Source of the DNA: a virus
Lineage: Duplodnaviria; Heunggongvirae; Uroviricota; Caudoviricetes
IMG/VR virus record: IMGVR_UViG_3300020721_000006
DNA: 64,000 bases
Direction: 5' to 3' (one strand)
Shown: positions 77-59,615 of the stretch, one piece after another
How positions within the stretch are numbered: the stretch's first letter is position 1
How the letters are laid out: the number at the start of each line of letters is the position of its first letter
Notes under the pieces: model-generated
Database searches by the model: none
Seen by the model: the letters and a program-made list of their open reading frames with translations, nothing else
What the model was told of the DNA's origin: nothing
Position numbers and translations under genes: made by a program

Positions 77-208
77 ATGAAAATAAAAGAAATATTAAGT
101 GAAGCCCCGATTGTTGATTATGAACCATTGGGTAATTTAGAAAACATTTTGGAAATTATGTTTAGCGATGTATTAAATGCTTGTGTTGGCAAAATTTTTG
201 TAATGTAG
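77..208 (+). CDS. short ORF (43 aa) with CTS-like N-terminus MKIKEILSEAP; probable truncated paralog of the protein starting at 1512
   Basis: ATG at 77, TAG at 206-208; N-terminus nearly identical to MKIMEILSEAP of ORF 1512; below ORF-track size cutoff. Confidence 0.25.
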   Translation: MKIKEILSEAPIVDYEPLGNLENILEIMFSDVLNACVGKIFVM

Positions 209-216
209 GATTACCA

Positions 217-1515
217 ATGAAATTAAGAGAATTATTTGAAAGTTCAGTACTACTTGAATACGATAGAAACAAAACCGCATCCGTTTTTGGTAACAAATTA
301 GTTAATGCATTAATTAATGATAATGGTAGAAATAATAAAAATCTAATTGATTTACGTAATGAACTTACATCAGCAGAACAACTACAACCAAATGCGATAT
401 TAAAATCTGCTAATATTATATTAGCATTTATTGAAGATATTGATCCAACTACCCATAAAGAATATACTAGATGGTTATCTACTGTTTATGCCAATCAAGG
501 TATTAAATTTGAAGACCTTAACAGTAAAGGTAAAGATTGGTTGATAACATATACTAACTTAAAAAAGCATCGTATACTACCACCCGAATATAAAGACATT
601 GGAAGAATTACTTTTGATCAATTGGGTGATATTGCATTAAACAAAGAATTCCAAGAAAAGTTATCAGGTGCACAAACACCAACTGATAAAGGTAAATCTA
701 AAGAAATATATAATGATAAACAACTAACAATCATACAACCAGAAGATAAAACAAGTGCTTGTTATTATGGTCAAGGAACCAAATGGTGCACTGCTGCTAC
801 TAATAATAATATGTTTGATCAATATGCTGACGAGGGTCCATTATATATTATTATACCTAAACATCCACAATATGTTGGAGAGAAATACCAGTTACATTTC
901 GAAGCATCACAATTCATGGATGAACGTGATGAAGAAATTGATATTCAAGAATTGTTTTCTAGGTTCCCACAATTAAAAAAAGTGTTTAATCAATACAGAT
1001 ATATATTCAGTGTATATGACTGGTATGGGCACGAATTTATAGGTAAATATCAAAAAGAAAATCTTAGCAAATTTCAAGAAGCTATAAATGAAAAATATAA
1101 AGAACTTGGACAGAAATCAGTTGAAGAACTATTGAATATAACTCCAGAAGTGGTTGCACAAATACCCCATATCGAAACATATATTCATAGGTTATTGACA
1201 GAAGGGTTTTTAGCAAGAAAAATTTCAGCTATTGTTACTAACTTTTCGTTAGTGGCCGACAGCAACAACATGGAACATGCAGTTGATACAATGACACAAC
1301 GTGATGAAAAAATTGAACTTGGACATACCAATGATGATTATGAATTAGAAAAAAGTATATGGACTAACTTTAAAGATAATGTAGCTGCTATGTTATGGGA
1401 TCAATGGCAAGCAATGATTAAATTAAAGGTCCCATCAGTTAGTTTAAAAAATCATCAATTTTCAAAATTATTACTAAAAACAGCATTAGAAGCTATTGAA
1501 GGAATCAAGAAATGA
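217..1515 (+). CDS. hypothetical protein (~432 aa)
   Basis: long ORF; start taken at Met (MKLRELFESS) after upstream short ORF stop; stop overlaps next start as ATGA (1512-1515). Confidence 0.55.
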   Translation: MKLRELFESSVLLEYDRNKTASVFGNKLVNALINDNGRNNKNLIDLRNELTSAEQLQPNAILKSANIILAFIEDIDPTTHKEYTRWLSTVYANQGIKFEDLNSKGKDWLITYTNLKKHRILPPEYKDIGRITFDQLGDIALNKEFQEKLSGAQTPTDKGKSKEIYNDKQLTIIQPEDKTSACYYGQGTKWCTAATNNNMFDQYADEGPLYIIIPKHPQYVGEKYQLHFEASQFMDERDEEIDIQELFSRFPQLKKVFNQYRYIFSVYDWYGHEFIGKYQKENLSKFQEAINEKYKELGQKSVEELLNITPEVVAQIPHIETYIHRLLTEGFLARKISAIVTNFSLVADSNNMEHAVDTMTQRDEKIELGHTNDDYELEKSIWTNFKDNVAAMLWDQWQAMIKLKVPSVSLKNHQFSKLLLKTALEAIEGIKK

Positions 1516-3482
1516 AAATAATGGAAATATTAAGTGAAGCACCACTACCACCTGAATGGGATAAACAAGTTTATACACCAAATACTTCATATAAAAAACG
1601 TATAGAATACGCAGTAGCACGAGCTCAAAAACTTGGTAAAGGTAGCAGTAGAACTGTAGTTGAAATACCATATCAAGGAAGACAAACTGTTCTAAAAGTA
1701 GCACACAATGGTAAAGGCATGGCACAAAATGAAGCCGAAGCTGGAATACTAGATGATTGGTATGTGAAACAAAGTGGCTTAGTCATACCCATTATTGATT
1801 ATGATGAAGACCATTCCCAACCAGTATGGCTACATACCGAAAAAGCAGAAAAAGTAAATGCAAAACAATTGTGTCAACTATTAAGAACCAACGATCTATC
1901 TACACTAATTCGATATGCCAATATGATGGTTGGTAAAATTAGATATGAACAAACTTATATGGATAGAGTTATACAAACTATTACAGAACTATACGGTGAA
2001 GATGGTGCTGAGATATTTTCAGAATATGCTGGTAGTTTGGGTGACCTAGCAACAAATAATGATGTTGATCTTAGAGATTTTAATACACATAAAAATTGGG
2101 GTGTTTATAAAGGTGAGCCAGTTGTAATTGATATTGGTTTTACTAAAGACGTTGCAGCACAATATTATTCAGAAGAAATTGATGAAAGTGAACTAACAGA
2201 ATTATTTGATAATCCATTGCCATTTGAGTGGACAACTAAACTACCAAATGATAGATACGTAGCAAAATTTATGGTAGGGCATCATGAATATAGATTTTCT
2301 GCACATATGTTTCCATATGATGACTTGATGGGTGCTGAAATTGCATTCTGTATGATGGACAACGGTAAGTGTAGAACTGATAATACCGGAACAGGTAATG
2401 CCAACCAGATATATGCTACCGTAATTGAATTGATAAAACAAGTAGCAGATGCTGCAAATTTATCTAGAATAGCATATGATGCTGCTGATGATAAACGTAA
2501 GAGTATATACCCTACCTTAATTAAGAAAGCATTACCAGGATGGGAGTTATCAGAACACGAAGATGACTACTACTATTACGATAAACCAATTAAAGAAGAA
2601 CTTAATGAAGGTATAAGTTCAGTATTATACCATTATACTAGATTACATACTGCTGTTAAAATATTAAATGAAAATCGGTTTATATTGACTTCTAGTATTG
2701 GTAATAGATCTGAAGAAAAATTGATGCCAAAAGGTTACCCATATTACCTAAGCACTACAAGAACAAAAATGGGTGGATATCATCATACACCATATAATGG
2801 TGAGGTTATATTTAATTTAGATGGTGATTGGTATAACAAACGATATAAAGGTAATTCTGTTGATTATTGGGGTGATAGACATAATGACTACGGTAGAGTA
2901 AGTGAAGCTGAAGATAGAATTTTTAGTAAAACACCAACTATTCCAACAACTGGTATTACATCTATTCATGTATACTTAACACTAGATAAACAGTTACAGT
3001 TTTATACTGAAGACGTAAGACTATTATTCAGACTAGCAAAAACAAAAGGTATTCCAATATCATTATATAATGATCCTAAAGCATGGTTATTACAAGATCC
3101 AAAACGTGTTATTAGTATTTCTTCTATATTGTCATCATTAAAAACTAATGATAAAAAACCAAAACCTTATAGAGGTCAAAGTAGATTTCAACCAATGAAA
3201 GAAATACTAGAATTGATATATAAAAATTCTACTAGTCAATTAAGTAAAAATGCTGACAAATTAGTCTACAATCTACGATATTACAATGACACTATAAGTG
3301 GGTTAGAAACTGATATGTTTAATGCACGTAAACCATCGGATAGTGAACGTCCTTTTTTGGATAACTTAATCAAAGCTATGCGTGCTAATGGTTGGAATAC
3401 CACTGCTGATATGGGTAATGCATTAAAAGATAAATGGACAGAAATTCAGAAAAAAGAATATGAAATAAACAAGAAGGTATAA
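1512..3482 (+). CDS. large hypothetical protein (656 aa) with capsid-targeting-sequence-like N-terminus MKIMEILSEAP
   Basis: uninterrupted 1.97 kb ORF, ATGA coupling to upstream gene; no recognisable catalytic motif. Confidence 0.65.
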   Translation: MKIMEILSEAPLPPEWDKQVYTPNTSYKKRIEYAVARAQKLGKGSSRTVVEIPYQGRQTVLKVAHNGKGMAQNEAEAGILDDWYVKQSGLVIPIIDYDEDHSQPVWLHTEKAEKVNAKQLCQLLRTNDLSTLIRYANMMVGKIRYEQTYMDRVIQTITELYGEDGAEIFSEYAGSLGDLATNNDVDLRDFNTHKNWGVYKGEPVVIDIGFTKDVAAQYYSEEIDESELTELFDNPLPFEWTTKLPNDRYVAKFMVGHHEYRFSAHMFPYDDLMGAEIAFCMMDNGKCRTDNTGTGNANQIYATVIELIKQVADAANLSRIAYDAADDKRKSIYPTLIKKALPGWELSEHEDDYYYYDKPIKEELNEGISSVLYHYTRLHTAVKILNENRFILTSSIGNRSEEKLMPKGYPYYLSTTRTKMGGYHHTPYNGEVIFNLDGDWYNKRYKGNSVDYWGDRHNDYGRVSEAEDRIFSKTPTIPTTGITSIHVYLTLDKQLQFYTEDVRLLFRLAKTKGIPISLYNDPKAWLLQDPKRVISISSILSSLKTNDKKPKPYRGQSRFQPMKEILELIYKNSTSQLSKNADKLVYNLRYYNDTISGLETDMFNARKPSDSERPFLDNLIKAMRANGWNTTADMGNALKDKWTEIQKKEYEINKKV

Positions 3483-4237: not shown

Positions 4238-4331
4238 AAGACATCCAGAAAATTAAAAAAATGTCCTCATTGTAATTTTTCAAGTAGAGGGTTACGATGG
4301 GGAAATAACTGTGATAATTGTGTATATAAAA

Positions 4332-4859: not shown

Positions 4860-4867
4860 AATTTAAA

Positions 4868-4973
4868 ATTGCTTATTAATTAATTTATATGATAAATAAG
4901 TAATATTAAAGGAATAAAAAATTGCTTATTAATTAATTTATATGATAAATAAGTAATATTAAAGGAATAAAAA
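4868..4973 (+). repeat. perfect 2 x 53-bp tandem duplication carrying late-promoter-like GATAAATA box and AAAGGAATAAAAA RBS immediately upstream of the tail-fibre module
   Basis: copy 1 4868-4920, copy 2 4921-4973, identical; GATAAATA at 4891-4898 and 4944-4951; ATG at 4974. Confidence 0.9.
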
Positions 4974-5210: not shown

Positions 5211-5220
5211 AGGATAACAT

Positions 5221-6489: not shown

Positions 6490-6492
6490 AAA

Positions 6493-8471: not shown

Positions 8472-8484
8472 GGAGAAAATATAA

Positions 8485-9020: not shown

Positions 9021-9036
9021 GGGCATGGTGATGAGT

Positions 9037-9614: not shown

Positions 9615-9672
9615 TATTAAATGGATCTAATGGAATAAGTGGATTACCAGTCCCATTAGCACTTAGTCAAGG

Positions 9673-10970: not shown

Positions 10971-10971
10971 A

Positions 10972-11868: not shown

Positions 11869-11870
11869 AT

Positions 11871-11911: not shown

Positions 11912-11913
11912 AT

Positions 11914-14664: not shown

Positions 14665-14870
14665 ATACTGCCGTAGTTGATTTAGAAAAATATGATAAGT
14701 TTAGATATAGAGATATCAATTCATATAATGGATTTGCCAGATTAAATGCTACCTATATTTTTAAAAAGAAGTTCAAGATTACCGGTGAACGATTTGTAGC
14801 ATTTAATGAATTAGAACTAACATTTGAAACTGAACAAGCCAAAACTTGGTTCTTATTAAACTTGCATTAA
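14655..14870 (+). CDS. WF-family-like small protein (KTWFLLNLH)
   Basis: start moved to internal ATG 14655 overlapping previous stop. Confidence 0.4.
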   Translation: MDLNTAVVDLEKYDKFRYRDINSYNGFARLNATYIFKKKFKITGERFVAFNELELTFETEQAKTWFLLNLH

Positions 14871-15301
14871 TGTTTTGATACTTTATAAAAAGCAAGATTA
14901 CCAGTCACATCATGATGCATTTTCCAAGTTGGTAATAATATTTTGGCTAATCTGCTATATAACGATTGTCTATTTGAATCTTCGGCAGAAAAAATAACAC
15001 TGTTGACTTCATGTGTATTTAAAAAATCTTTCATTATAGATACAACAGTTGAGAATACAGATTTTTCACTACCAGTACCAGTTTTGCTATAAACCTTTTT
15101 ACCTTTTACTATTTGATAAAATGCAATCTTCCACGATTCACCATAATTAAATGCATCAAAACCATATTTAAGTTTCTTTGAAAAGAATCTGCCAGGTTGA
15201 ACTATTACAAATTCCGCTACTGCTGATTTATTATCATTAACAATCCATTTATATGGAACAGTTGAATCAAATGATTCACTTAGTATTTCAATTATCTTCA
15301 T
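14867..15301 (-). CDS. hypothetical protein with CTS-like N-terminus MKIIEILSES
   Basis: 144-aa ORF on opposite strand inside the rightward array; GGAG RBS. Confidence 0.55.
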   Translation of the reverse strand: MKIIEILSESFDSTVPYKWIVNDNKSAVAEFVIVQPGRFFSKKLKYGFDAFNYGESWKIAFYQIVKGKKVYSKTGTGSEKSVFSTVVSIMKDFLNTHEVNSVIFSAEDSNRQSLYSRLAKILLPTWKMHHDVTGNLAFYKVSKH

Positions 15302-18167: not shown

Positions 18168-18728
18168 TTAATAGAAATTTGGATTACCAATATATAAAAT
18201 CATAGGCATTAATGTATTCTGGTGTTCTTTTAAATAAGTTTCATTGGATTCCATAATAGTAATAGATGTTGGTCCAGCATGACCAGCATCGCTACTAGCA
18301 TATATCCATTCTGCTCTAATTTTGTCTATATCTGGATAATCTCCATTTTGATCCACCACAGTAAATCTTTTAGAATTACGTTGTAAAAATCGTAATAGCC
18401 ACTGTAATCCTTCACTGGTCAATTGCTCATTTGATGAAAATATTACTTTTTTACCTAATACCCCAGTAATAAATGCAATTAGTGCAGTAATTCCACCAAC
18501 TATATTAGCCCGATTACGCATTCCATGTAAAAAATCACCAGACATTAAAATGTAAACTGTGATTTTATCTCCTTTACTAAAGAAGTATAATGTAGCTTCA
18601 CCTGATATGAACTTGTGAACATCTTCACCATCAATGGTACCAATCTTTTTGCTATGTAATAGAATTTGGTCATCTGGCATGGTTAAATCTAATGCAGAAT
18701 GTGCGTAATCAATTTCAAAAATTTTCAT
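18168..18728 (-). CDS. hypothetical protein (186 aa) with CTS-like N-terminus MKIFEIDYAHS
   Basis: isolated minus-strand ORF. Confidence 0.55.
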   Translation of the reverse strand: MKIFEIDYAHSALDLTMPDDQILLHSKKIGTIDGEDVHKFISGEATLYFFSKGDKITVYILMSGDFLHGMRNRANIVGGITALIAFITGVLGKKVIFSSNEQLTSEGLQWLLRFLQRNSKRFTVVDQNGDYPDIDKIRAEWIYASSDAGHAGPTSITIMESNETYLKEHQNTLMPMILYIGNPNFY

Positions 18729-29021: not shown

Positions 29022-29468
29022 ATGAAAATATTTGAAATAATTGCAGACAAACTCTCAAAGTCATATATTTTTGAAATGGCATTTGATAGGAAAGATGTTG
29101 AAGCGAGGATTACATCAATTGCTGATCCAATTGTTGAACACTTAGTTAAAGCTTTAAAATGGGAGGATCCAGTTAATTATGAAAAACATTTAGGTGATAT
29201 AAACAATTGGTTATTTCAAATTCAACGATTGAAAATGAAAAACAATAAAAAACCAACTCAACATGATTATTATACTTGGATGTTTACTGATGTAGCACAA
29301 GACGAATTAACAATTAGTAGATTTGTCAAAGGATTACATAGATATCACCATCTACCAATAATTAAAACTGATGATGAAGTTTTTAATATAATTAAGAATA
29401 TTTTATACCAATTAAGTTATGATTTGGCATTGAATAAATTTGATGATATAAATCATTATTTGAAATAG
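29022..29468 (+). CDS. hypothetical protein with CTS-like N-terminus MKIFEIIADK (possibly DUF29-like)
   Basis: ORF; HLVKALKWEDP motif. Confidence 0.5.
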   Translation: MKIFEIIADKLSKSYIFEMAFDRKDVEARITSIADPIVEHLVKALKWEDPVNYEKHLGDINNWLFQIQRLKMKNNKKPTQHDYYTWMFTDVAQDELTISRFVKGLHRYHHLPIIKTDDEVFNIIKNILYQLSYDLALNKFDDINHYLK

Positions 29469-33186: not shown

Positions 33187-33407
33187 TGTGTACACCCAAA
33201 GAAAAAGCAGAAATTGACAAAGAAGTCCACGAATGGTGGTCTAGAAATCAAGATGTTGTAGAAAAAATCAATAATTCAATGAACATGGTTGAAATCAATT
33301 CTGATATAACAATTGACAATTTTTCAGACACTATAGATAAGTTAATTCAAAAATCAGAGAGATACCATAAGGAATTTTTAGATGAAATTAAAGGAAATAA
33401 TACTTAA
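33186..33407 (+). CDS. hypothetical protein (73 aa)
   Basis: ORF. Confidence 0.45.
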   Translation: MCTPKEKAEIDKEVHEWWSRNQDVVEKINNSMNMVEINSDITIDNFSDTIDKLIQKSERYHKEFLDEIKGNNT

Positions 33408-33669
33408 GCCAGAATTAATAAATTGGGACATATTGAAGAACCCAGAAATTGCAAAACCGGTATATAAATTATTTAAATATTACAAAGATATTTCTCATAA
33501 GTTTTCAATTCCATCTACCGATTTATATAACAACTATCAAATAACAGATATAATAATTGATTTACATAAAATTAAACATGATGCATTATTTATATTTTCA
33601 AATACAGATCAAATTATTAAAGTGATAGATAGACTAATTAGTTATTTTGAATATAATGAATTATCATAA
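33382..33669 (+). CDS. hypothetical protein; paralog of 23344-23631
   Basis: shared C-terminal motif. Confidence 0.5.
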   Translation: MKLKEIILKPELINWDILKNPEIAKPVYKLFKYYKDISHKFSIPSTDLYNNYQITDIIIDLHKIKHDALFIFSNTDQIIKVIDRLISYFEYNELS

Positions 33670-44982: not shown

Positions 44983-45336
44983 ATGAGAGCAAATGAATTT
45001 TTAAAAGAAGCAAAACTTGGTGTAGAAGCTAAACGAGCAATGCGTGAGGGAAGTCGTCCAGGACGTGGGCACAAACCGGAAGCATGTTATAATATGGATG
45101 AAGAATTTGAATTGGATGAAGCTGGAAAAACACCAAAATCAGTTTGCTTAAGTAAAAAAACTGACAAAGAATTAGGTGCTAGTCAACTTTCATCTTGTAA
45201 AGCACAAGGTTTAAGAAAACGTGATACAAAACGTAAGTTTAAAACTGGTGGAAGTGATGTACCAAAAAGTATTAAAGGGAAGAAAGTACGTAGCTCAGAT
45301 TATGGTGGCCCGTTGCCAAAATGGAAAGGTAACTAA
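44983..45336 (+). CDS. highly basic small protein (internal-protein-like), N-terminus MRANEFLKEA
   Basis: Lys/Arg-rich 117 aa; CTS-like start. Confidence 0.5.
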   Translation: MRANEFLKEAKLGVEAKRAMREGSRPGRGHKPEACYNMDEEFELDEAGKTPKSVCLSKKTDKELGASQLSSCKAQGLRKRDTKRKFKTGGSDVPKSIKGKKVRSSDYGGPLPKWKGN

Positions 45337-45914
45337 TGAGATTCCAAGAATTCAAGGTATTAAAAGAATTAGCAAGTCCACTGAGTATTATATCACAGGC
45401 TGCTGATCTCGCTACTAAATATTCAAACCCATTTTCTGCATTAGGGATTAGTAGTGGAAATGATACTAGTGGTAATACTGCTAGTAATCTTCCAGGTGAC
45501 CAAAATATTAAAATTGGGTCAGGTGGTACAGGGTCTATAAATAAAAATGAAGTATCATCATATTTAAAATCAAAAATGGATGATAACCATAGATTAGGTA
45601 TTTTAGCCAATATAGAAGGTGAGTCACATTTTCAACCAGGAGTATTAGGTGATAAAAATACAAGTGGTGGATTATTTCAACATCATAATGAGAGATTTAC
45701 TAATATGGTAAATTACGTTGGAAGTGATTGGGCTACTGATTGGAAAAATCAAATTGATTTTGCATTATCAGAACCAGAAGGTAAACAATATTTGGCAACT
45801 AGATTTAGGACACCAGAACAGGCAACTGAATGGTGGGTTAGAAATTTTGAAAGACCAAAATATGCAACATCTGATACAAATAAACGTATTGGTTATTTAA
45901 AAAATTTTGGATAA
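45336..45914 (+). CDS. putative virion-associated lysozyme-like (tail/ejection lysozyme-type) protein, N-terminus MRFQEFKVLKE
   Basis: C-terminal block ILANIEGESHFQPGVLGD ... SGGLFQHHNERF ... WKNQIDFALSE ... WWVRNFERP resembles phage tail-lysozyme domain. Confidence 0.45.
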   Translation: MRFQEFKVLKELASPLSIISQAADLATKYSNPFSALGISSGNDTSGNTASNLPGDQNIKIGSGGTGSINKNEVSSYLKSKMDDNHRLGILANIEGESHFQPGVLGDKNTSGGLFQHHNERFTNMVNYVGSDWATDWKNQIDFALSEPEGKQYLATRFRTPEQATEWWVRNFERPKYATSDTNKRIGYLKNFG

Positions 45915-51839: not shown

Positions 51840-54524
51840 ATGTCAATAAGAAAAATTAGAGCAGGACGTATTCCAACTATTTCAGCAAATGAATATATTG
51901 GTGAACGTGGAACTATATTTTGGAATGAAGATACTGGTGAACTACGCTTAAGTGATGGCATTACACCAGGTGGAAATACAGTTATTGTTGGATTTGCGTC
52001 CGAGCAAATAGCAGGAAGTGTAAAACCAGGTGGTGGATTTACTGTTTCAGCCGATGCAACACTTAGTTTGAATGTTGGATCAATGTTTGAATTAGATATA
52101 AACAATGTATTTCAGCTTAAACCTGCCACTTCTTCACAATTGGGTGGCATTAAAGCAGGTCCTGGTATCGAAATTGCATCCGATGGCACGTTACTTATTG
52201 ATAGCGCTGGTCTAAGTTTTAGTTTTGGTGATTTTTATGCATCAGGAAATAATTTTTCAACTGTTAATTTAAATGAAGATGTGAACATCGTATCAAATGG
52301 TACTGGAACTGTTAACATAGTTGGTAATTTTTCAGTTTATAAAACAGACGATACGGTAGCAGGTGCTGAAGCGGTAAGTCCGATTTTTCATATTAGTGGA
52401 GATGGACAAATACAAATGTTAGTTCCATCTGCAGACCAAAATACTGGTGCATTAGAAATAGTTGGTTCATTAGATGGTGTCTATCAAATTCCAGTTAATA
52501 CAGGTGTAATGCTACATATAACAGGTATACCACCCCAAGGAGGAATAGCTACACCGAGTCGTTTATATAACGATGCCCAAGGTTCATATGCATTATATGC
52601 TGGAAGAAGATATAATGGAACAGCGGTGTCACCATTGCCTGTATTAGCAAATGAACCACTTGTAAGATATGCTGGGGTTGGCTATGCTAGTGGTGGTTGG
52701 CCAGGATTTGGGCCAGCTAGAATGGAAATTAATGCTGGTGAAAATTTAACTAATACTAATCAAGGTGGATATTTAACATTCTATGCTACACCAAATGGTC
52801 AAATTGCAAGTACAAATAATACTAAATTAGTTGCTAGAATGGATACTACCAGCGGTATTGTATCATCTAAATTAAATGTTGTAAATTATACCGTTATCAA
52901 TGGGCATTTAAATGCAGTTCCTCTGGTTATTAACGTATCTGGTGCAAGTGGAACAGCAGGAACTGCTACATTAACTTTTTCAACACAACCATTCCCACCA
53001 TTCTTGGTAGGTGGAAAAATTACTGTTTCTAGTATGAATCCAGCAGGATACAATGCGAATTCGGTGACAGTTACTGCATGTACAACGACATCAGTAAGCT
53101 ATAGTAATGCCACTACCGCAACATTTGTTGCTGGGGGAATTATAACTGGATTGGATACTATTGTTCTTAATTCTGGATTGGTTGGTGCAATTGATAATAT
53201 TAACATCGGAACATCAACTCCTGGCACTGGTGCTTTTTCTGCATTATCTGCATCAAATGTCTCATCATCTACTGGAGTAGTTTCACTAGGAACATTTGCT
53301 GGCTCATTCACCGATGGCGTAATCATCGATTATGCAAATAGCATAGGTCGTATTAGTGTAGGAGACAATGATGGAATTACATTTTATAAAAGTGCAAATA
53401 CAACTAGAGCAGCATTACTAGCAATAAATTCAAATGGAAATTTAACATTATCTGGAAATACATTAACTATATCAAATGCAACATGCTATATAGTTAATAC
53501 AACTGCAACAACTGTTAATTTTGCTGGTGCAGCTACCACATTGAACATTGGAAATTCTAGTGGCACTACTACAATATCTGGTAATTTATCTGTTTCTAAT
53601 ACCATATCTGGTAGTGTTAGTGGCAACGCTGGAACTGCGACTAAACTGGCAACAACAACTAACATAAATGGAGTTAGTTTTGATGGATCGTTGTCTTCAT
53701 ACACATTAACAGCTGCAGCAGGAACCTTAACAGGAACTACCTTAAATTCAACCATAGTAAATAGTAGTTTAACAAGTGTTGGAGCATTAACTAGTGGTAG
53801 TATAGGTTCTGGATTTACTGCAATACCTAACTCAGCGTTAGCACATAATAGTACAACTATAGGTACTACTGCGATTAGTTTAGGTAGTTCAAGTACAACA
53901 TTAAGTGGTATGTCTAGTATAACATTTGCTGGTGCAACTAGCGGAACTTCATTATTACAATCTCAAGCAATCGCTGCAACAACAACATTTACTTTACCAT
54001 CAACTACCGGTACATTAATAGGTACAGGCGATACTGGCACAGTATCTAATTCTATGCTATCACATAGCACAATTTCTGGAGTTGCTTTAGGTAATAACTT
54101 AAATTCTTTAACAACAGGATTTGGATTACAATTATCTTCAGGAACAACATATAATGGTAGTTCATCTCTTACATTAAATAAATATTACACAATAACTGGA
54201 CCAGTATCTATAGTATCTAATGCTTATGCGTTAGACTTAGGAACAGCAAATGGTGTTGTTATTTTAGATAACGCTGGTGCTGCATTTACTATTACTATTT
54301 CTAATCCGCTAGCAGGTAGAAATATTCGTGTATTAGTTACATCATTAAAAGGAAATCCAGTAATTACTATTAGTGGATTATCTGCGTCAAATAGTAGTAA
54401 TGGAACACTTACATTCACTTCAAATTATGGTCCAGGTACTACTACATTTGCATTAATTGAATTCATTTGTACCTCTAGTGCTCTGTCTGGGGTTTATATG
54501 AATATATCTGGTGGGGCTAAATAA
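51840..54524 (+). CDS. large fibre-like structural protein (894 aa)
   Basis: N-terminal IRKIRAGR ... GERGTIFWNEDTGELRLSDG domain homologous to N-terminus of fibre ORF 62664; long S/T/G/N-rich beta-rich body. Confidence 0.65.
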   Translation: MSIRKIRAGRIPTISANEYIGERGTIFWNEDTGELRLSDGITPGGNTVIVGFASEQIAGSVKPGGGFTVSADATLSLNVGSMFELDINNVFQLKPATSSQLGGIKAGPGIEIASDGTLLIDSAGLSFSFGDFYASGNNFSTVNLNEDVNIVSNGTGTVNIVGNFSVYKTDDTVAGAEAVSPIFHISGDGQIQMLVPSADQNTGALEIVGSLDGVYQIPVNTGVMLHITGIPPQGGIATPSRLYNDAQGSYALYAGRRYNGTAVSPLPVLANEPLVRYAGVGYASGGWPGFGPARMEINAGENLTNTNQGGYLTFYATPNGQIASTNNTKLVARMDTTSGIVSSKLNVVNYTVINGHLNAVPLVINVSGASGTAGTATLTFSTQPFPPFLVGGKITVSSMNPAGYNANSVTVTACTTTSVSYSNATTATFVAGGIITGLDTIVLNSGLVGAIDNINIGTSTPGTGAFSALSASNVSSSTGVVSLGTFAGSFTDGVIIDYANSIGRISVGDNDGITFYKSANTTRAALLAINSNGNLTLSGNTLTISNATCYIVNTTATTVNFAGAATTLNIGNSSGTTTISGNLSVSNTISGSVSGNAGTATKLATTTNINGVSFDGSLSSYTLTAAAGTLTGTTLNSTIVNSSLTSVGALTSGSIGSGFTAIPNSALAHNSTTIGTTAISLGSSSTTLSGMSSITFAGATSGTSLLQSQAIAATTTFTLPSTTGTLIGTGDTGTVSNSMLSHSTISGVALGNNLNSLTTGFGLQLSSGTTYNGSSSLTLNKYYTITGPVSIVSNAYALDLGTANGVVILDNAGAAFTITISNPLAGRNIRVLVTSLKGNPVITISGLSASNSSNGTLTFTSNYGPGTTTFALIEFICTSSALSGVYMNISGGAK

Positions 54525-54931
54525 TGAAAATAAGAGAAATAATTAACGAAGGGTTAGCGCAAGATAAAGCAAATTTAATAATTAAAAAATTTATACAGTT
54601 TGCACAAGACCATTTAGAGTTAGCTGAATTACCTTCTATTTCTCTAAACACTAATTCACACATAAGTATTGAACATAAATCATTTGGTGGATATAGTCCA
54701 TCTGATAAAAGTATTAATGTTATGATGTCTAATAGACATATACAAGACGTGCTTCGTACAATTGCACATGAACTTACGCATTATAAACAAGATCTAAATG
54801 GTGAATTAAATGCGGATAGTGGCAAAGATGGTAGCCCACAAGAAAATTCTGCAAATTCTACTGCAGCTATAATCCTTAGAAAGTGGGGTAAATTACACCC
54901 AGAATTATTTGGATATGAGGCTATAGAATGA
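54524..54931 (+). CDS. HExxH motif protein (metallopeptidase-like) with CTS-like N-terminus MKIREIINEG
   Basis: IAHELTHYKQ zinc-binding-like motif; TAATG coupling to fibre gene. Confidence 0.45.
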   Translation: MKIREIINEGLAQDKANLIIKKFIQFAQDHLELAELPSISLNTNSHISIEHKSFGGYSPSDKSINVMMSNRHIQDVLRTIAHELTHYKQDLNGELNADSGKDGSPQENSANSTAAIILRKWGKLHPELFGYEAIE

Positions 54932-56677: not shown

Positions 56678-56932
56678 ATGAAAAAATCAACTCGCTCCAT
56701 ACTACAAGAATTAAGTGAAATTGGATTAAGTAGAGATACTAATCTAATAATAGAAAGTCGTGCTTCTAATATAATACAAAGTGCGATAAATCTAATTGAA
56801 CTAATTAAAGAAAACTACGATCCAGAAATCTCTGATGATTTAGAACGTAGATTCATCAATAGTATTAAATCAGGTGATACAACTAAATTCAAAAGGGGCC
56901 TTAAAAAACTACAAGAAAGTAAGAAAATTTAA
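56678..56932 (+). CDS. hypothetical protein (84 aa)
   Basis: AAGGAACATCGG RBS. Confidence 0.45.
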   Translation: MKKSTRSILQELSEIGLSRDTNLIIESRASNIIQSAINLIELIKENYDPEISDDLERRFINSIKSGDTTKFKRGLKKLQESKKI

Positions 56933-56939
56933 CTTTTTT

Positions 56940-56947
56940 GATAAATA
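56940..56947 (+). promoter_or_regulatory. GATAAATA late-promoter-like box
   Basis: 50 nt upstream of ATG 56998. Confidence 0.4.
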
Positions 56948-56997
56948 ATATTATAAACCTACAGAGTGTGGGTTGAAAAGCATATAGGAGAAAGATT

Positions 56998-57450
56998 ATG
57001 CCATCATTATTAGGAACAACAGGCATCGACGGAACAGTGAACACTGGCGTTGCTGCTAATTATTTAAAAACAAAACCAACTACACAACTTGGTACTCGTG
57101 CATTAGTATTTTTAAACATCACTTTGAGTGGTTCAGGTGCACCAGACTTAACTAAACAATCTGGTTCATCAGGTACTTATACTGACCCACAAAGTTATTT
57201 AACTACTCTAGTGCGTACAGTTCAGGGTTATGCTGAAATTTATGCAATCGGTACACCAACTGCAACTGATATTACTATTGCTATCGCTAGCAACACTGCT
57301 AATGATTCAGCTGATGGTAGTAACGTTTCTGATAGTTCTTGGGGTGATATCGAAGTAGCAGTATGGACTGCACTAGGTTCTTGGAATTCACCAATAGGAA
57401 CTAACGTTGTAGCTTCAGCTAAAAGCTTATCAGGTGCTACATTGGTTTAA
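56998..57450 (+). CDS. small S/T/G/A-rich protein (150 aa), probably abundant structural protein
   Basis: late box + strong RBS ATAGGAGAAAG + strong terminator directly downstream. Confidence 0.5.
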   Translation: MPSLLGTTGIDGTVNTGVAANYLKTKPTTQLGTRALVFLNITLSGSGAPDLTKQSGSSGTYTDPQSYLTTLVRTVQGYAEIYAIGTPTATDITIAIASNTANDSADGSNVSDSSWGDIEVAVWTALGSWNSPIGTNVVASAKSLSGATLV

Positions 57451-57470
57451 TAACTAGTTTAAATTAGATT

Positions 57471-57502
57471 AAAAAGCCTCGATTTATTCGGGGCTTTTTT
57501 TT
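57471..57502 (+). terminator. rho-independent terminator AGCCTCG-atttatt-CGGGGCT + T8
   Basis: 7-bp stem (one G.U) followed by eight T. Confidence 0.75.
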
Positions 57503-57518
57503 GTCTGCTAAATATAAG

Positions 57519-57935
57519 ATGATTTATAATTTATATACACTTGTAGATATCACACATACTGGACAATACCGTGCTGAACCTGGTAAGGAAGCTGCTCGAT
57601 GGAAAGAACAAAACTTCAATACCATCATCCAAACATTGGGTATTCGTTCTAATGTTTTCTATAGTATCAACCCAACTCTAGTAGAAGTAAAAGGAAAAGT
57701 TGTTGGGTTTAATACCAATGATATTATAAGAGTATGGAGATTTGATTTTGAATCTGAACGTGATTTTGTTTATGAAAAAGACGGTGATCCTGTTGGATTT
57801 CTTAAAGATGACTTTAATTTAGTTCCATATATCAATGGGTTAGATGAACTAATGGAACAAAAGTATGCAGTATTTGTGACTGAAGGTAAAGGTAAGAATA
57901 TAGTTTTTAACCATTTTCCGATAAATACACTATAA
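57519..57935 (+). CDS. hypothetical protein (138 aa)
   Basis: start at first ATG after terminator (ORF-track start is TTG). Confidence 0.5.
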   Translation: MIYNLYTLVDITHTGQYRAEPGKEAARWKEQNFNTIIQTLGIRSNVFYSINPTLVEVKGKVVGFNTNDIIRVWRFDFESERDFVYEKDGDPVGFLKDDFNLVPYINGLDELMEQKYAVFVTEGKGKNIVFNHFPINTL

Positions 57936-57953
57936 CCTCATTTGGGAGTCACA

Positions 57954-58202
57954 ATGGAGAACGGAATGTCACTAAAACCAACTGATATTGAAAAAGAAAA
58001 CTTAGAGAGTCACGTAGAATTATGTGCATTACGTTATCAAAATTTAGAATCAAGATTACATACAATTGAAACTAAAGTAGAAGTATTAGCTGAAAAAATA
58101 GAAGAAAGTAAAGGCAGTATGAGCAAAGTCATCATAGGTGCAACTGCTACTATTATAGCTGGTATTCTCTCAACTATTGTTACTATATTAATAAAATTCT
58201 AA
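57954..58202 (+). CDS. coiled-coil protein with C-terminal TM anchor (holin/spanin-like topology)
   Basis: GATAAATA box 57920-57927, GGGAG RBS; C-terminal IIGATATIIAGILSTIVTILIKF. Confidence 0.45.
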   Translation: MENGMSLKPTDIEKENLESHVELCALRYQNLESRLHTIETKVEVLAEKIEESKGSMSKVIIGATATIIAGILSTIVTILIKF

Positions 58203-58203
58203 T

Positions 58204-59403
58204 ATGTCAATTTCAGAAGCACCAGTTGCAGCATTTACAGTAAACAATACATTAAACCCAATTCTATGGGATAATGATGAATTACGTTTAGATATTAGAT
58301 ACAAATTGCTATCTATTGCTAAACACTTTGCAGATACTTTAAAAGTTAAACATCTTAACTTAACTGATGTAACAATCAGTGGTTCAAATGCTAGTTTTGG
58401 TTATTCTGAATATTCTGATGTTGATTTACATTTAGTAGTTGATATGCCAAATGATGAAGAATTAGAAGATTACTATAATGCAAAAAAGAATGAGTTTAAT
58501 AACAAATATGATATTAAATTAAAGAGCATACCAGTAGAAGTATATGTACAAAATAGTACACAACCACATCACTCGGCTGGTATATACAGTGTCCTAGATA
58601 ATAAATGGATACATAAACCATCTAAAGTAGTTCCAAAAGCAACTCCACAAGAAGTTAAAAATAAAGCACGAAATTATTCATCAAAAATTAATCAAGCACT
58701 TAGATCAAAAGATTTAGATGAAGCAAAAGCAGCCATGGATGATCTTAAAAGATTAAGACAAGCTGGATTAGAAATGGGGTGTGAAGAATCTGTAGAAAAC
58801 TTAGCGTTCAAGCTATTAAGATCTCGTGGAAAAATAGATAAGCTAAGAAATCACATAGACAAATTACAAAGTGCTGAACTCAGCCTTGGAGAACAAATGA
58901 AAATCAACGATATAGTAAAAGAAGATGGAACACATGCTGTTGTAACTAATTACCAACCAGGTAAATTAGTTTCGGTAACAATGCCAGATGGTACCCAAAT
59001 TCAAAAAGATTTAACAAAAGACCCTACTGCAATTGGTAAAGATGCGCAAGGTAATCCTGTATTTAACTTAACAGGTCAGCAAGGTTCTGCCGGTGCTATG
59101 CAAACAACTGAAAAACCAATTACAACTGGTTCACAGATTAGTATCAATACAAATCCATCACAAATGATGGGAATGGGTGAAACTAGTGAAGAAGAATTAG
59201 AAGATGACGATTTAGTTGATTCTAATAATGAAATTGGTGGTGATCCAACTGATAACTTTATAGATGGTATAATAGATAAAAGATTTGAAAGAGGTGCTCG
59301 TGGTAGCATGAGTAGTAAACAAACTGGTTCATTTGGGCCAGTATCTGGTTTAAAAGAGTCCGACGAACTTTATAAATGGTTAACCATTGCTGGTATAAAA
59401 TGA
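58204..59403 (+). CDS. nucleotidyltransferase-fold (Pol-beta-like) protein with long low-complexity acidic C-terminal region
   Basis: ISGSNASFGYSEYSDVDLHLVVD = GS-x9-13-DxD NTase signature. Confidence 0.55.
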   Translation: MSISEAPVAAFTVNNTLNPILWDNDELRLDIRYKLLSIAKHFADTLKVKHLNLTDVTISGSNASFGYSEYSDVDLHLVVDMPNDEELEDYYNAKKNEFNNKYDIKLKSIPVEVYVQNSTQPHHSAGIYSVLDNKWIHKPSKVVPKATPQEVKNKARNYSSKINQALRSKDLDEAKAAMDDLKRLRQAGLEMGCEESVENLAFKLLRSRGKIDKLRNHIDKLQSAELSLGEQMKINDIVKEDGTHAVVTNYQPGKLVSVTMPDGTQIQKDLTKDPTAIGKDAQGNPVFNLTGQQGSAGAMQTTEKPITTGSQISINTNPSQMMGMGETSEEELEDDDLVDSNNEIGGDPTDNFIDGIIDKRFERGARGSMSSKQTGSFGPVSGLKESDELYKWLTIAGIK

Positions 59404-59615
59404 AAATCGAAGAATTATTAGAAAATATGGAAATCTGGACAACTAATGAAGAAGCCAAGATTTTAAAAAAACTTAAATCGCCAGTAAAATTAAATACACT
59501 TAATGAACACGATAAAGTTAAAGTAGAATATATGATTAGAAAAGGTCTAGTTGAAAAAACTGGGTTTACTGACCCAACAGTGGTAGCAAATGAAAAATTC
59601 AAAAAAGACAATTAG
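59400..59615 (+). CDS. small protein with CTS-like N-terminus MKIEELLENM
   Basis: ATGA overlap with NTase gene. Confidence 0.45.
   Translation: MKIEELLENMEIWTTNEEAKILKKLKSPVKLNTLNEHDKVKVEYMIRKGLVEKTGFTDPTVVANEKFKKDN

What the first reader, a model, noticed from the sequence alone, without database searches (positions are those of the whole stretch)
77..59615. Nine proteins begin with MKIxEIL(S/N)E, resembling the T4 capsid-targeting sequence of packaged internal proteins
N-termini MKIMEILSEAP (1512), MKIKEILSEAP (77), MKIIEILSES (14867-15301 minus), MKIFEIDYAH (18168-18728 minus), MKIFEIIADK (29022), MKIREIINEG (54524), MKIEELLENM (59400), MRANEFLKEA (44983) and MRFQEFKVLKE (45336) resemble the T4 IPIII capsid-targeting sequence (MKTYQEFIAE, as I recall it). 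In T4 that sequence directs IPI-III and Alt into the prohead and is removed by the prohead protease after an (I/L)-x-E motif. The set includes a very basic 117-aa protein (T4 internal proteins are small and basic), a lysozyme-like protein, an HExxH protein and a 656-aa protein. Such proteins would be co-injected with DNA and are prime anti-defence or host-takeover effector candidates.
Basis: partly seen in the sequence, partly recalled or inferred. Interest (0 to 1): 0.75.

Follow-up and report, generated by a model that had tools for sequence, protein, structure and literature searches.

The report
Shared leader peptide marking virion-packaged phage proteins
About eight unrelated proteins of this roughly 300-kb phage share a nine-residue N-terminal tag like the one phage T4 uses to load proteins into its capsid, so the proteins this phage probably injects into its host can be read from sequence.

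Summary
All nine N-termini are present, and the motif M-[KR]-[ILFVM]-x-E-[ILFVM] starts 11 of 141 predicted genes, against about 1 expected.

Corrections:
- The ORF at 77 is only 43 aa.
- The neighbouring 432-aa gene (217-1515) carries its own leader, MKLRELFESS.
- 18168 and 45336 are weak members.

The leader is a portable tag. It heads unrelated domains here: kinase-like, ADP-ribosyltransferase fold, DUF6934, HExxH peptidase and a basic protein. It is also found in Alishewanella phage Slicko01, in dozens of metagenomic multidomain "polyvalent" proteins, and in IMG/VR contigs. [LI]-x-E, the T4 gp21 protease cleavage motif, recurs at internal domain junctions.

In T4, a leader profile ranks Alt second and gp24 fourth of 237 N-termini.

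In jumbo phage PA5oct, which has an S77 prohead protease and a gp23-type capsid protein, leader-like N-termini are enriched among virion proteins found by mass spectrometry (8/91 against 4/258, p=0.003). These include homologues of two window proteins.

The best reading is a T4-type capsid-targeting and cleavage propeptide on injected effectors (confidence about 0.6). Packaging, cleavage and the source phage's own protease were not shown.

The parts
77..208 (+). 43-aa ORF that is little more than the leader (MKIKEILSEAP...). Its first 33 nt duplicate the start of gene 1512-3482. An ATAAATA-like motif lies 29 nt upstream.
   Evidence: Also called as a 43-aa gene in metagenome contigs. Profile score 10.6.
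217..1515 (+). It is a homologue of PA5oct EST35_0205, a virion protein detected by mass spectrometry that starts MKLFEVFTLYED.
   Evidence: score 17.0; E=2e-23.
1512..3482 (+). 656-aa three-module polyvalent-type protein with leader MKIMEILSE|AP. Modules: kinase-like fold (about aa 14-220), DUF6934 (about aa 231-345), and a DarT/Tpt1-like ADP-ribosyltransferase fold plus helical tail (about aa 367-656).
   Evidence: leader pLDDT below 50; kinase fold hits; DarT/Tpt1 fold hits.
2193..2201 (+). Internal leader-like junction L228-T229-E230 (ESELTE|LFDNPLPFEW) in front of the DUF6934 module. Predicted protease site.
   Evidence: P0003 keeps a complete internal 'MKLRELFDNPVPFEW' at the same boundary.
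2601..2609 (+). Internal junction L364-N365-E366 (KEELNE|GISSVLYHYT) in front of the ART-fold module. Predicted protease site.
   Evidence: [LI]-x-E precedes this domain in 23 of 24 distinct contexts, N-terminal or internal, against a background of 0.09. The Glu is invariant in alignment A3.
14867..15301 (-). 144-aa basic (pI 9.5) DUF6934 protein with leader MKIIEILSE|SF. It is a homologue of the PA5oct virion protein EST35_0349 (MHLFELFDQIE). An ATAAATACACT motif lies 25 nt upstream.
   Evidence: score 12.0; E=5e-7.
29022..29468 (+). 148-aa protein starting MKIFEIIADK. Moderate leader match with no [LI]-x-E at positions 7-9.
   Evidence: score 7.1.
44983..45336 (+). 117-aa very basic protein (pI 9.9) with leader MRANEFLKE|AK. 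Homologues in IMG/VR loci also carry leaders (MKVMELFLTP, MKIKEILHEN). GATAAATAT lies 28 nt upstream.
   Evidence: (score 11.8).
45336..45914 (+). 192-aa Phage_lysozyme2 protein starting MRFQEFKVLKE|L. Weak leader match. Co-transcribed with 44983 by position.
   Evidence: PF18013, E=1.3e-14; score 3.0.
54524..54931 (+). 135-aa HExxH metallopeptidase with leader MKIREIINE|GL. It is the same domain as the C-terminal peptidase of polyvalent proteins P0031 and P0011.
   Evidence: score 7.4; E=4e-25 to P0031 aa 604-734. Homologues start MKIRDLLFEG, MLALDLFEE and MKAREYISES.
59400..59615 (+). 71-aa protein with leader MKIEELLE|NM. It lies in an operon headed by GATAAATACACT at 57922. The IMG/VR homologue starts MKLNELISEF. 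By position it corresponds to PA5oct EST35_0238, which was detected in virions by mass spectrometry.
   Evidence: (score 14.4).
18168..18728 (-). 186-aa protein starting MKIFEIDYAH. It fits the regular expression but not the independent profile, so it is a doubtful member.
   Evidence: score 0.0.
33382..33669 (+). 95-aa protein starting MKLKEIILKPE. It is a paralogue of 23344-23631 (MKISEVVIHQ). Weak candidates.
   Evidence: score 5.2.
60061..61008 (+). 315-aa acidic coiled-coil protein with a weak match to a PHROG family annotated 'virion structural protein' (phrog_14154, head and packaging; E=2.4e-8), starting MQLKELSQP. Homologues start MNIKEIKTP and MKLSEMSQT. TATAAATACATT lies 36 nt upstream. 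Possible core or scaffold-type protein.
   Evidence: (phrog_14154).

Best explanation
The motif M-[KR]-[ILA]-x-[ED]-[LIF]-[LIF]-x-E is a portable N-terminal leader, equivalent in function to the T4 capsid-targeting propeptides of Alt, gp24 and the internal proteins.

Proposed mechanism (inferred): late in infection the short leader lets otherwise unrelated proteins co-assemble with the scaffolding core of the prohead. The N-termini of the core and scaffold proteins themselves look the same. A gp21-type (Peptidase_S77) prohead protease then cuts after the Glu of the [LI]-x-E that ends the leader. It would also cut the same motif between modules of the 656-aa multidomain protein. This frees the cargo inside the capsid, and the cargo is ejected into the host with the DNA.

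The cargo here is a kinase-like domain, a DarT/Tpt1-like ADP-ribosyltransferase-fold domain, two DUF6934 domains, an HExxH peptidase, a small very basic protein and probably a lysozyme. This is the repertoire expected of host-takeover or anti-defence effectors.

Shown: the leader is real, is more frequent than chance, is modular, and is conserved in orthologues and in many phages. It sits outside the folded domain in the models. Leader-bearing homologues are virion proteins in PA5oct.

Inferred: head-internal location, cleavage by the prohead protease, and injection.
For: 1. Enrichment. 11 of 141 N-termini match, against about 1 expected, and 0 of 351 internal Met positions match. With an independent profile, 6 N-termini reach 10 bits against 3 of 17,036 internal positions.

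2. Modularity.
- In Slicko01, eight consecutive genes plus four others start MKIxxLYES....
- Of 37 distinct N-termini among 44 homologues of the 656-aa protein, 22 fit the strict motif, whichever domain comes first. By eye about 32 fit a relaxed form.
- An IMG/VR DNA-pattern scan gave 86 matches. Most, about 65 by my reading of the table, start ORFs of at least 60 aa on unrelated proteins, and they often occur in arrays of 5-8 genes.

3. Orthologues of the window proteins keep a leader while the sequence after it varies.

4. [LI]-x-E precedes the ART-fold domain in 23 of 24 contexts, including internal junctions. The Glu is invariant. Homologues in JA11 lack the leader, and Lu11 and HRDY3 carry a different one, so the leader is not part of the fold.

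5. AlphaFold models place leader residues 1-13 at pLDDT below 50, outside the kinase-like domain.

6. T4. gp21 cuts after L/I-X-E, and short propeptides target proteins to the core (PMC9026906). The profile ranks Alt 2nd, alt.-1 3rd, gp24 4th and the IPs 26-30th of 237 T4 N-termini.

7. PA5oct has Peptidase_S77 and Gp23. Leader-like N-termini occur in 8 of 91 MS-detected virion proteins against 4 of 258 others (Fisher p=0.003). They include EST35_0205, a homologue of window 217 (E=2e-23), and EST35_0349, a homologue of window 14867 (E=5e-7).

8. Slicko01 encodes S77, a T4_CASP scaffold and Gp23. Scaffold and core proteins start with leader-like sequences: MKEDLKQLFES, MAKKIDEILSES, MKAKEMLVEF and MKINDIITEG.

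9. ATAAATA(C), resembling the T4 late promoter, lies 25-37 nt upstream of 77, 14867, 44983, 57954 and 60061. The operons they would head cover 77, 217, 1512, 14867, 44983, 45336, 59400 and 60061.
Against: - No prohead protease, scaffold or capsid gene lies in the window or within 10 kb either side. Two capsid-protein searches did not reach the source genome.
- There is no proteomic or N-terminal peptide evidence for this phage, and cleavage is not shown in any leader-bearing relative.
- The PA5oct enrichment rests on 12 proteins and on a score threshold chosen after looking at the data. Mass-spectrometry detection does not separate head-internal from tail proteins.
- The profile's top T4 hit is UvsY, which is not a head protein, and the T4 IP CTS scores poorly.
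- Late-promoter enrichment upstream of leader genes in IMG/VR is weak (18% against 9%).
- The [LI]-x-E in front of the ART fold could be a conserved part of that domain family.
Confidence: 0.6

Rival explanations
1. The leader does direct the proteins into virions. However, the [LI]-x-E sites are processed by the phage's own HExxH peptidase (54524-54931, the peptidase type proposed for polyvalent proteins) rather than by the prohead protease. Alternatively the proteins sit in a non-head part of the particle and are not cleaved at all.
For: - Iyer et al. 2017 propose that the metallopeptidase domain cuts polyvalent proteins into functional units (PMC5512222).
- The window encodes a stand-alone copy, and 6 of 80 IMG/VR leader loci also carry one.
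- The PA5oct mass-spectrometry data do not localise the proteins within the virion.
Against: - The site matches the documented specificity of T4 gp21 (L/I-X-E), whereas the specificity of this metallopeptidase is unknown.
- The peptidase itself carries the leader, so it behaves as cargo.
- Head-module proteins (the scaffold-position protein and the small protein next to the portal) share the motif.
Confidence: 0.15
2. The leader is a short protein-interaction helix unrelated to virion assembly. It could be a tag recognised by a phage or host chaperone or protease (a degron), an oligomerisation element or a membrane-association element shared by a class of early effectors.
For: - The motif is short and of alternating acidic and hydrophobic character.
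- UvsY, which is not a virion protein, is the top T4 hit of the profile.
- 4 of 12 leader-like PA5oct proteins were not detected in virions.
- PA5oct-type phages encode ClpX, ClpA, ClpS and ClpP.
Against: - Leader-like N-termini are about 6-fold enriched among PA5oct virion proteins.
- Known T4 propeptide proteins rank at the top of the profile.
- The motif is shared with scaffold and core proteins.
- Late-promoter-like motifs lie upstream.
Confidence: 0.12
3. The similarity reflects common descent only. The proteins would be paralogues or recombinants that inherited one N-terminal exon-like segment, and the segment would have no function of its own.
For: - ORF 77 and gene 1512 share 30 of 33 nt.
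- 23344 and 33382 are paralogues.
- 14867 is homologous to the middle module of the 656-aa protein.
Against: - At least seven leader-bearing families in the window have unrelated sequence after residue 10.
- The leader is kept in distant orthologues while adjacent residues diverge.
- It appears on more than 30 different downstream sequences in other phages.
- Another phage lineage has replaced it with a different shared leader on homologous cargo.
Confidence: 0.05
4. The motif is a by-product of translation-initiation constraints and AT-rich codon usage (AUG AAA AUx ... GAA), possibly on leaderless or Shine-Dalgarno-less late mRNAs.
For: - Lys is the commonest second residue (40 of 141), and Ile and Glu are common at positions 3 and 5.
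- Some leader genes have the ATAAATA motif abutting the ATG with no Shine-Dalgarno sequence (18168; loci L026, L088).
Against: - The observed count is about 11-fold above the expectation from the position-specific composition of the same N-termini.
- The peptide motif recurs at internal domain junctions, where no initiation occurs.
- The [LI]-x-E|APLP end of the leader is also conserved at the peptide level in XacN1, a Xanthomonas phage, whose homologue starts MKQVRLSQFLSEAPLP.
Confidence: 0.04

Closest known systems
T4 capsid targeting sequence (CTS) of internal proteins IPI, IPII and IPIII (Mullaney & Black 1996)
   Same: A leader of about 10 residues at the extreme N-terminus of otherwise unrelated, often small and basic proteins. 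It ends in [LI]-x-E followed by a small residue: MKTYQEFIAE|A in T4, compared with MRANEFLKE|A and MKIMEILSE|A here. The genes are scattered in variable regions. Function in T4 is targeting to the scaffolding core followed by removal by gp21.
   Different: - One residue shorter, with a different consensus. The T4 IP CTS ranks only 26-30 of 237 with the leader profile.
- The host is a jumbo phage of about 305-332 kb from metagenomes, not a T-even phage.
- The cargo includes large multidomain enzymes.
- No experimental proof of targeting or cleavage exists here.
N-terminal propeptides of T4 Alt (MELITELFDE) and gp24 (MAKINELLRE)
   Same: These are the best sequence matches. They rank 2nd and 4th of 237 T4 N-termini with a profile trained on non-T4 leaders. 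Alt is a packaged and injected ADP-ribosyltransferase, and the window's 656-aa protein carries an ART-fold module. T4 alt.-1 is a truncated duplicate of the alt N-terminus, like window ORF 77.
   Different: The window's ART module is DarT/Tpt1-like, not Alt-like. I detected no sequence homology to Alt beyond the leader. The leader register is offset by one residue.
Polyvalent proteins of phages and conjugative elements (Iyer, Burroughs, Anand, de Souza & Aravind 2017)
   Same: Homologues of the 656-aa protein are multidomain proteins with shuffled domain order. Their precomputed Pfam hits include PF18760, PF18765, GNAT families and PF02195, and some carry a ParB-like segment or a C-terminal HExxH peptidase. 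That paper predicts such proteins are packaged in the capsid and injected.
   Different: In my term searches of that paper I found no mention of a shared N-terminal leader, of [LI]-x-E junctions, or of a link to the prohead protease. It proposes self-processing by the metallopeptidase domain. Here most of the cargo is encoded as separate leader-tagged genes rather than as one giant protein.
Propeptides of ejection and inner-body proteins in phiKZ-like giant phages (phiKZ, 201phi2-1, SPN3US)
   Same: Head-internal proteins are processed by a gp21-related protease after Glu at a three-residue motif. Paralogues can share identical N-terminal segments (PMC5694885).
   Different: Those propeptides are mostly 79-127 residues long and the motif is (S/A/G)-x-E or A-x-E. 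No short common leader across unrelated proteins is reported there.

Membership tests
T4-type capsid-targeting propeptide (CTS) | A short (about 7-20 aa) segment at the extreme N-terminus, shared by proteins that are otherwise unrelated | tested here: met
   At least 8 window proteins with unrelated downstream sequence share it. The same holds in Slicko01, in 44 homologues and in IMG/VR loci.
T4-type capsid-targeting propeptide (CTS) | The segment ends in the prohead-protease site L/I-x-E | tested here: met
   L-S-E (77, 1512, 14867), L-F-E (217), I-N-E (54524), L-L-E (59400) and L-K-E (44983, 45336) lie at residues 6-11. The site is not present at that position in 29022 or 18168. The specificity is taken from PMC9026906.
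T4-type capsid-targeting propeptide (CTS) | The same genome encodes a gp21-type (Peptidase_S77) prohead protease and a scaffolding core | tested here: inconclusive
   Absent from the window and from 10 kb on either side. The rest of the 305-332 kb genome could not be reached. Both are present in the leader-bearing relatives Slicko01 and PA5oct.
T4-type capsid-targeting propeptide (CTS) | The tagged proteins are physically present in the capsid | not testable with these tools
   Indirect evidence only. PA5oct homologues EST35_0205 and EST35_0349 and five other leader-like proteins are annotated as virion proteins detected by ESI-MS/MS. Enrichment is 8/91 against 4/258, p=0.003.
T4-type capsid-targeting propeptide (CTS) | The leader is removed in the mature virion, and it is sufficient to package a foreign protein | not testable with these tools
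   This needs N-terminal or semi-tryptic peptide mapping and leader-reporter fusions.
T4-type capsid-targeting propeptide (CTS) | Sequence resemblance to the experimentally defined T4 leaders | tested here: met
   Alt ranks 2nd and gp24 4th of 237 T4 N-termini. The IP CTS ranks 26-30, a weak match. UvsY is a false positive at rank 1.
Polyvalent proteins (Iyer et al. 2017) | Two or more unrelated effector-type domains in one polypeptide, with shuffled architectures among relatives | tested here: met
   The 656-aa protein has a kinase-like fold, DUF6934 and an ART fold. P0002, at 71% identity, carries the same modules in a different order plus an extra domain.
Polyvalent proteins (Iyer et al. 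2017) | Association with a zincin-like metallopeptidase domain | tested here: met
   The stand-alone HExxH protein 54524-54931 matches the C-terminal domain of P0031 (E=4e-25) and of P0011 (E=3e-18).
ADP-ribosyltransferase fold (DarT/Tpt1-like) | ART fold with conserved catalytic-type residues | tested here: met
   The AlphaFold model has pLDDT 84 and pTM 0.79. The top seven PDB hits are DarT and Tpt1 (probability 1.0, E=3e-4 to 4e-3). H, S..R and ExEDR are invariant in alignment A3. Enzymatic activity was not tested.
Protein-kinase-like fold | Bilobal kinase fold | tested here: inconclusive
   The model has pLDDT 79. All top PDB hits are protein kinases, but TM-scores are only 0.3-0.4 and E is about 1e-3. 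There is no Pfam or PDB sequence match.

The most novel reading that the evidence does not exclude
The leader M-[KR]-[ILA]-x-[ED]-[LIF]-[LIF]-x-E may be a general address label of the wider T4 superfamily, including Rak2-, PA5oct- and XacN1-type jumbo phages and abundant uncultured aquatic phages. It would mimic the N-terminus of the scaffold and core proteins. Its [LI]-x-E end would also serve as the cut site that breaks multidomain polyvalent proteins into separate effectors inside the capsid. If so, the complete set of injected proteins of thousands of uncultured phages could be listed from sequence alone. Other lineages (Lu11 and HRDY3, with MKIQLAVA and MELxLALAA) would have evolved their own labels for homologous cargo.
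Probability: 0.4. Interest if true: 0.8.

Novelty: new variant of a known kind. Interest (0 to 1): 0.68.

Why it matters
Proteins injected with phage DNA act before any phage gene is expressed. T4 IPI* and Alt show they can block restriction systems or reprogramme the host. They are therefore prime candidates for anti-defence factors, and they are hard to recognise by homology.

A sequence tag that marks them would give three things:
- a direct list of candidate effectors in uncultured jumbo phages. Here these include a kinase-like domain, a DarT-like ADP-ribosyltransferase-fold domain, a metallopeptidase and a small basic DNA-binding-type protein;
- a mechanistic link between the polyvalent proteins predicted by comparative genomics and the T4 head-assembly pathway;
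- a ready-made targeting peptide for loading foreign proteins into large capsids, as the CTS already does in T4-based vectors.

Tried and rejected
1. Near-identical DNA in the phage collection: none found. The 894-aa protein also has no phage hit.

2. Finding the source phage's head module:
- Contig look-ups 10 kb either side of the window show only small ORFs, tail-spike-like genes and RNR genes.
- A capsid-protein profile search (T4 plus Slicko01) returned only T-even and Slicko-like capsids. P0055 turned out to be a T-even concatemer.
- A search with the PA5oct capsid protein returned 8,000 hits. The large contigs I checked (P0257, P0258) are other phages, and L151 (P0257) has 42% GC.

3. 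Close relatives of the 656-aa protein in IMG/VR: none.

4. XacN1 and PaBG virion proteome papers: no usable data for the relevant genes. PaBG virion proteins lack a leader.

5. PA5oct peptide-level data: the supplements are not held.

6. T4 late promoter TATAAATA as an exact 8-mer: not enriched in the window. The shorter ATAAATA(C) shows a positional preference upstream of genes, but only weak enrichment upstream of leader genes in IMG/VR.

7. Sequence searches of the modules against PDB: nothing found.

8. The AAA ATPase as a taxonomic marker: too widely distributed to be informative.

9. The codon-bias explanation: rejected.

Full report
**The observation**

The window is AT-rich phage DNA (about 31% GC, with a 41% GC tail-fibre block at 4-12 kb). 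It has no near relative among sequenced phages. Identical genes occur on metagenome contigs of 305,761 and 331,931 bp, so the source is a jumbo phage.

Three corrections are needed:
- The ORF at 77 stops after 43 codons.
- The large ORF beside it starts at ATG 217 with a leader of its own, MKLRELFESS. Metagenome gene calls give the same two genes.
- The 43-aa ORF shares 30 of its first 33 nt with the 656-aa gene, and nothing beyond that.

**Is it more than chance?**

I called 141 genes in the window. The pattern ^M[KR][ILFVM].E[ILFVM] occurs at 11 N-termini. The position-specific residue frequencies of those same N-termini predict 1.0. The frequency of the pattern inside proteins predicts 0.12. 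None of 351 internal methionines is followed by it.

To avoid circularity I built a nine-column profile from leaders found only in other phages (49 sequences). I picked the Slicko01 members of that set by eye. Six window N-termini score at least 10 bits: 217, 59400, 14867, 1512, 44983 and 77. Two more score about 7 (54524, 29022). Only 3 of 17,036 internal positions reach 10 bits. On this profile 45336 scores 3.0 and 18168 scores 0.0, so I treat those two as doubtful. AT-rich codon bias alone does not explain the motif.

**The leader is a portable tag**

*Isolated phages.* The 656-aa protein has homologues starting at residue 1 in jumbo phages XacN1 and Xoo-sp13, and in the 141-kb Alishewanella phage Slicko01. 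In Slicko01, eight consecutive genes and four others begin MKIDELYES, MKIEQLYESILEEG, MKIYNLYSTLLEAPLP and similar.

*Metagenomic homologues.* A search of 5.8 billion proteins returned 44 homologues. They are multidomain proteins with shuffled domain order.
- Of their 37 distinct N-termini, 22 fit the strict motif.
- By my reading about 32 fit a relaxed form.
- This holds whichever domain comes first.

*IMG/VR scan.* I scanned IMG/VR for ATGAAAATHNNNGARHTNYTNNNNGAR.
- The 80 loci retained hold 86 matches.
- Most of them, about 65 by my reading of the table, start ORFs of at least 60 aa with a nearby upstream in-frame stop.
- They read MKI[NST]ELL[TSN]E on unrelated proteins.
- They often occur in arrays: eight consecutive genes in L063, seven in L080 and five in L057.

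*Orthologues of the window proteins in those loci keep a leader while the following residues differ*:

| Window protein | Leaders on homologues |
|---|---|
| kinase-like module of 1512 | MKIKELFEAPLPDDWD |
| DUF6934 (14867) | MRIDEIMAATSVPWKW |
| peptidase (54524) | MKIRDLLFEG, MLALDLFEE, MKAREYISES |
| 59400 | MKLNELISEF |
| basic protein (44983) | MKVMELFLTP, MKIKEILHEN |

*The leader is not needed for the fold.*
- Dickeya phage JA11 homologues of the ART-fold domain start directly at the first strand (MKPLYHFT).
- Pseudomonas phages HRDY3 and Lu11 carry quite different shared leaders on homologous cargo: MELxLALAA on 5 consecutive genes, and MKIQLAVA on about 12 clustered genes.
- Alignments to the HRDY3 protein always begin at residue 17-18.

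**What the cargo is**

- *The 656-aa protein* has three modules.
  - Module 1: residues 1-13 are modelled at pLDDT below 50. Residues 14-220 fold with mean pLDDT 79, and every top PDB match is a protein kinase. TM-scores are only 0.3-0.4, so the assignment is tentative.
  - Module 2 is DUF6934, also found in the 144-aa protein at 14867.
  - Module 3 models well (pLDDT 84, pTM 0.79). Its seven best PDB matches are the DNA ADP-ribosyltransferase DarT and the tRNA 2'-phosphotransferase Tpt1. H, S..R and ExEDR residues are invariant.
- *54524* is an HExxH peptidase, the same domain as the C-terminus of polyvalent proteins P0031 and P0011 (E=4e-25).
- *45336* is a Phage_lysozyme2 protein.
- *44983* is very basic, with pI 9.9.
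- *58204* has no canonical leader but starts MSISEAP. It matches the N-terminal domain of P0030 and P0033 (E=1e-48), and Pfam gives it a weak nucleotidyltransferase match.

This is the domain repertoire of the polyvalent proteins that Iyer et al. predicted to be packaged and injected. In my term searches of that paper I found no mention of a common leader. It proposes self-processing by the metallopeptidase (PMC5512222).

**Junctions**

Where modules are fused, the boundary keeps the end of the leader.
- The 656-aa protein has ESELTE|LFDNPLPFEW and KEELNE|GISSVLYHYT.
- P0003 retains a complete internal MKLRELFDNPVPFEW.
- [LI]-x-E lies four residues before the first strand of the ART-fold domain in 23 of 24 distinct contexts, N-terminal or internal. 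A 10-residue window contains the motif by chance about 9% of the time.
- The kinase-like domain is preceded by [VILM]-x-E-A-PLP in most contexts.

These internal copies cannot be translation signals. They look like protease sites.

**Comparison with T4**

From the T4 record, the N-termini are:
- IPII and IPIII: MKTYQEFIAE|A
- Alt: MELITELFDE
- gp24: MAKINELLRE|S

alt.-1 is annotated as a truncated duplicate of the alt N-terminus, which parallels ORF 77.

From the literature (PMC9026906; PMC5694885):
- gp21 cuts after L/I-X-E.
- The propeptides target proteins to the scaffolding core.
- Residues 4 and 7 matter for targeting, and residues 8 and 10 for processing.

Applied to 237 T4 N-termini (registers 0-2), the non-T4 profile gives these ranks:

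| T4 protein | Rank of 237 |
|---|---|
| UvsY (false positive) | 1 |
| Alt | 2 |
| alt.-1 | 3 |
| gp24 | 4 |
| gp22 | 22 |
| IPII, IPI, IPIII | 26, 29, 30 |

The window leader is therefore closest to the Alt and gp24 propeptides.

**An experimental link through PA5oct**

- The 432-aa protein (217-1515) has a homologue in Pseudomonas jumbo phage PA5oct, EST35_0205 (E=2e-23). It starts MKLFEVFTLYED and is annotated "structural protein, ESI-MS/MS".
- PA5oct EST35_0349 starts MHLFELFDQIE and is also a virion protein detected by mass spectrometry. It is a DUF6934 homologue of 14867 (E=5e-7) and of the 656-aa middle module.
- PA5oct encodes a Peptidase_S77 protease (E=5e-24) and a Gp23 capsid protein (E=1e-96) (PMC7318152).
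- I fetched the whole PA5oct genome and transcribed its 93 mass-spectrometry-positive genes. With my gene calls, profile scores of 3 or more occur in 8 of 91 positive genes and 4 of 258 others (Fisher p=0.003). At a threshold of 5 the counts are 7/91 and 3/258 (p=0.004).
- The positives include the 73-aa protein next to the portal (MKINDIITEG).

The numbers are small and I chose the threshold after seeing the data. Mass spectrometry also does not show where in the particle a protein sits. Even so, the direction is as the hypothesis predicts.

**Head proteins look like the leader**

- Slicko01 has S77, a T4_CASP scaffold starting MKEDLKQLFESVVLNE, and Gp23.
- In PA5oct-type head modules from metagenomes, the small protein after the portal starts MKAKEMLVEF. 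The protein in the scaffold position starts MAKKIDEILSES. The capsid proteins start MxxKLFESNW.

This fits a leader that copies the N-terminus of core proteins and so co-assembles with them. That step is inference.

**Timing**

ATAAATA(C), resembling the T4 late promoter, lies 25-37 nt upstream of 77, 14867, 44983, 57954 and 60061. The operons they would head contain 77, 217, 1512, 14867, 44983, 45336, 59400 and 60061. The motif also precedes the tail-fibre block. The exact 8-mer TATAAATA is not enriched, and the IMG/VR test is weak (18% against 9%). This evidence is only suggestive.

**What remains open**

- The source genome's protease, scaffold and capsid genes were not reached.
- Nothing shows cleavage or head-internal location for any leader-bearing protein.
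- The cutting enzyme could be the HExxH peptidase rather than the prohead protease.
- A non-virion role for the tag is not excluded.

**Verdict**

In 7 of the 10 allowed paper searches I found no description of this leader outside the T-even phages. I rate it a new variant of a known kind: the T4 CTS principle extended to jumbo and uncultured T4-superfamily phages and tied to polyvalent-type effectors.

Noticed in passing
L018 (Lu11, NC_017972 156-170 kb) and L016 (HRDY3, PQ015379 98-111 kb): A second, unrelated shared leader occurs in other jumbo phages. About 12 clustered Lu11 genes (within gp204-gp219) start MKIQLAVA(A/G/T). Five consecutive HRDY3 genes start MELxLALAA. Both sets include homologues of the ART-fold cargo. 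This suggests lineage-specific address labels.
   Followed up: partly
window 77-208: A 43-aa ORF that is essentially a leader alone, duplicating the first 33 nt of gene 1512-3482. It resembles T4 alt.-1, a truncated duplicate of the alt N-terminus. It may be a recombination scar from leader-mediated module exchange.
   Followed up: partly
window 48-57, 15317-15326(-), 57922-57931, 60023-60034, and upstream of 4974, 44983, 48338, 49087, 56678 and 62203: ATAAATA(C/A/T) lies 25-37 nt upstream of many gene starts: 15 of 48 genome-wide copies fall in the 80 nt before genes. It looks like a T4-type late promoter, which would imply a gp55-like late sigma factor in this phage.
   Followed up: partly
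window 36488-44076 (- strand); also 15572 and 16449 (+): A long array of about 30 overlapping small genes (36-150 aa). Many are preceded by a near-identical GTTTnTATTGAGGTGG(T/G)C element directly before the ATG. This is a paralogous or cassette-like small-gene array of unknown function.
   Followed up: no
window 55296-56576: A TnpB / Cas12f-like protein (PF07282 TNB domain, E=1.3e-14) sits between the HExxH peptidase gene and the conserved 56.6-62.2 kb module.
   Followed up: no
window 30823-31410(-), 34597-35562(-), 47014-47808(-), 46519-47031(+): Three paralogous homing-endonuclease-like genes (phrog_314) and one HNH endonuclease are scattered on the minority strand. One contig variant also has a NUMOD3 gene near window position 4,000 (L004).
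   Followed up: no
window 12361-14181: A 606-aa protein with about 7 TPR repeats and a C-terminal segment with a weak glycosyltransferase family 9 match (E=4.7e-5), directly downstream of the tail-fibre block.
   Followed up: no
window 4001-12000: The tail-fibre and tail-spike block has 41% GC against about 31% elsewhere. This suggests recent acquisition of host-range genes from a higher-GC phage.
   Followed up: no
window 21243-21509, 21506-21736, 30549-30770: A family of small paralogues starts MNEKIRELAEQSGF, MNERIKEIALESWA and MKEKIKEIAQQAGL. The leader profile matches them at a register shifted by two residues (12.8 and 8.9 bits). They may be a further class of tagged proteins or an unrelated helix.
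   Followed up: no
window 56678-62184; L029, L070, L074; PA5oct 148-160 kb: This block is syntenic with several IMG/VR contigs and with a PA5oct region dense in virion proteins detected by mass spectrometry (w56678 = gp225, w57519 ~ gp234, w61447 = gp240). It is probably a conserved virion-protein module.
   Followed up: partly
window 58204-59403: A 399-aa protein with a weak nucleotidyltransferase match (PF01909, E=0.005) is homologous (E=1e-48) to the N-terminal domain of polyvalent proteins P0030 and P0033. It starts MSISEAP, which looks like a truncated leader end (I-S-E|A-P).
   Followed up: no
L063 (IMGVR_UViG_3300044655_002353), 4654-10021: Eight consecutive genes of about 220 aa all start MKI[KRGSQ]EL[LF].E. 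Most are preceded by an ACGAGTACGCAGAAnT element that also occurs, with small variations, in L032, L058, L078 and L083. This is a repeated expression cassette for leader-tagged genes.
   Followed up: no
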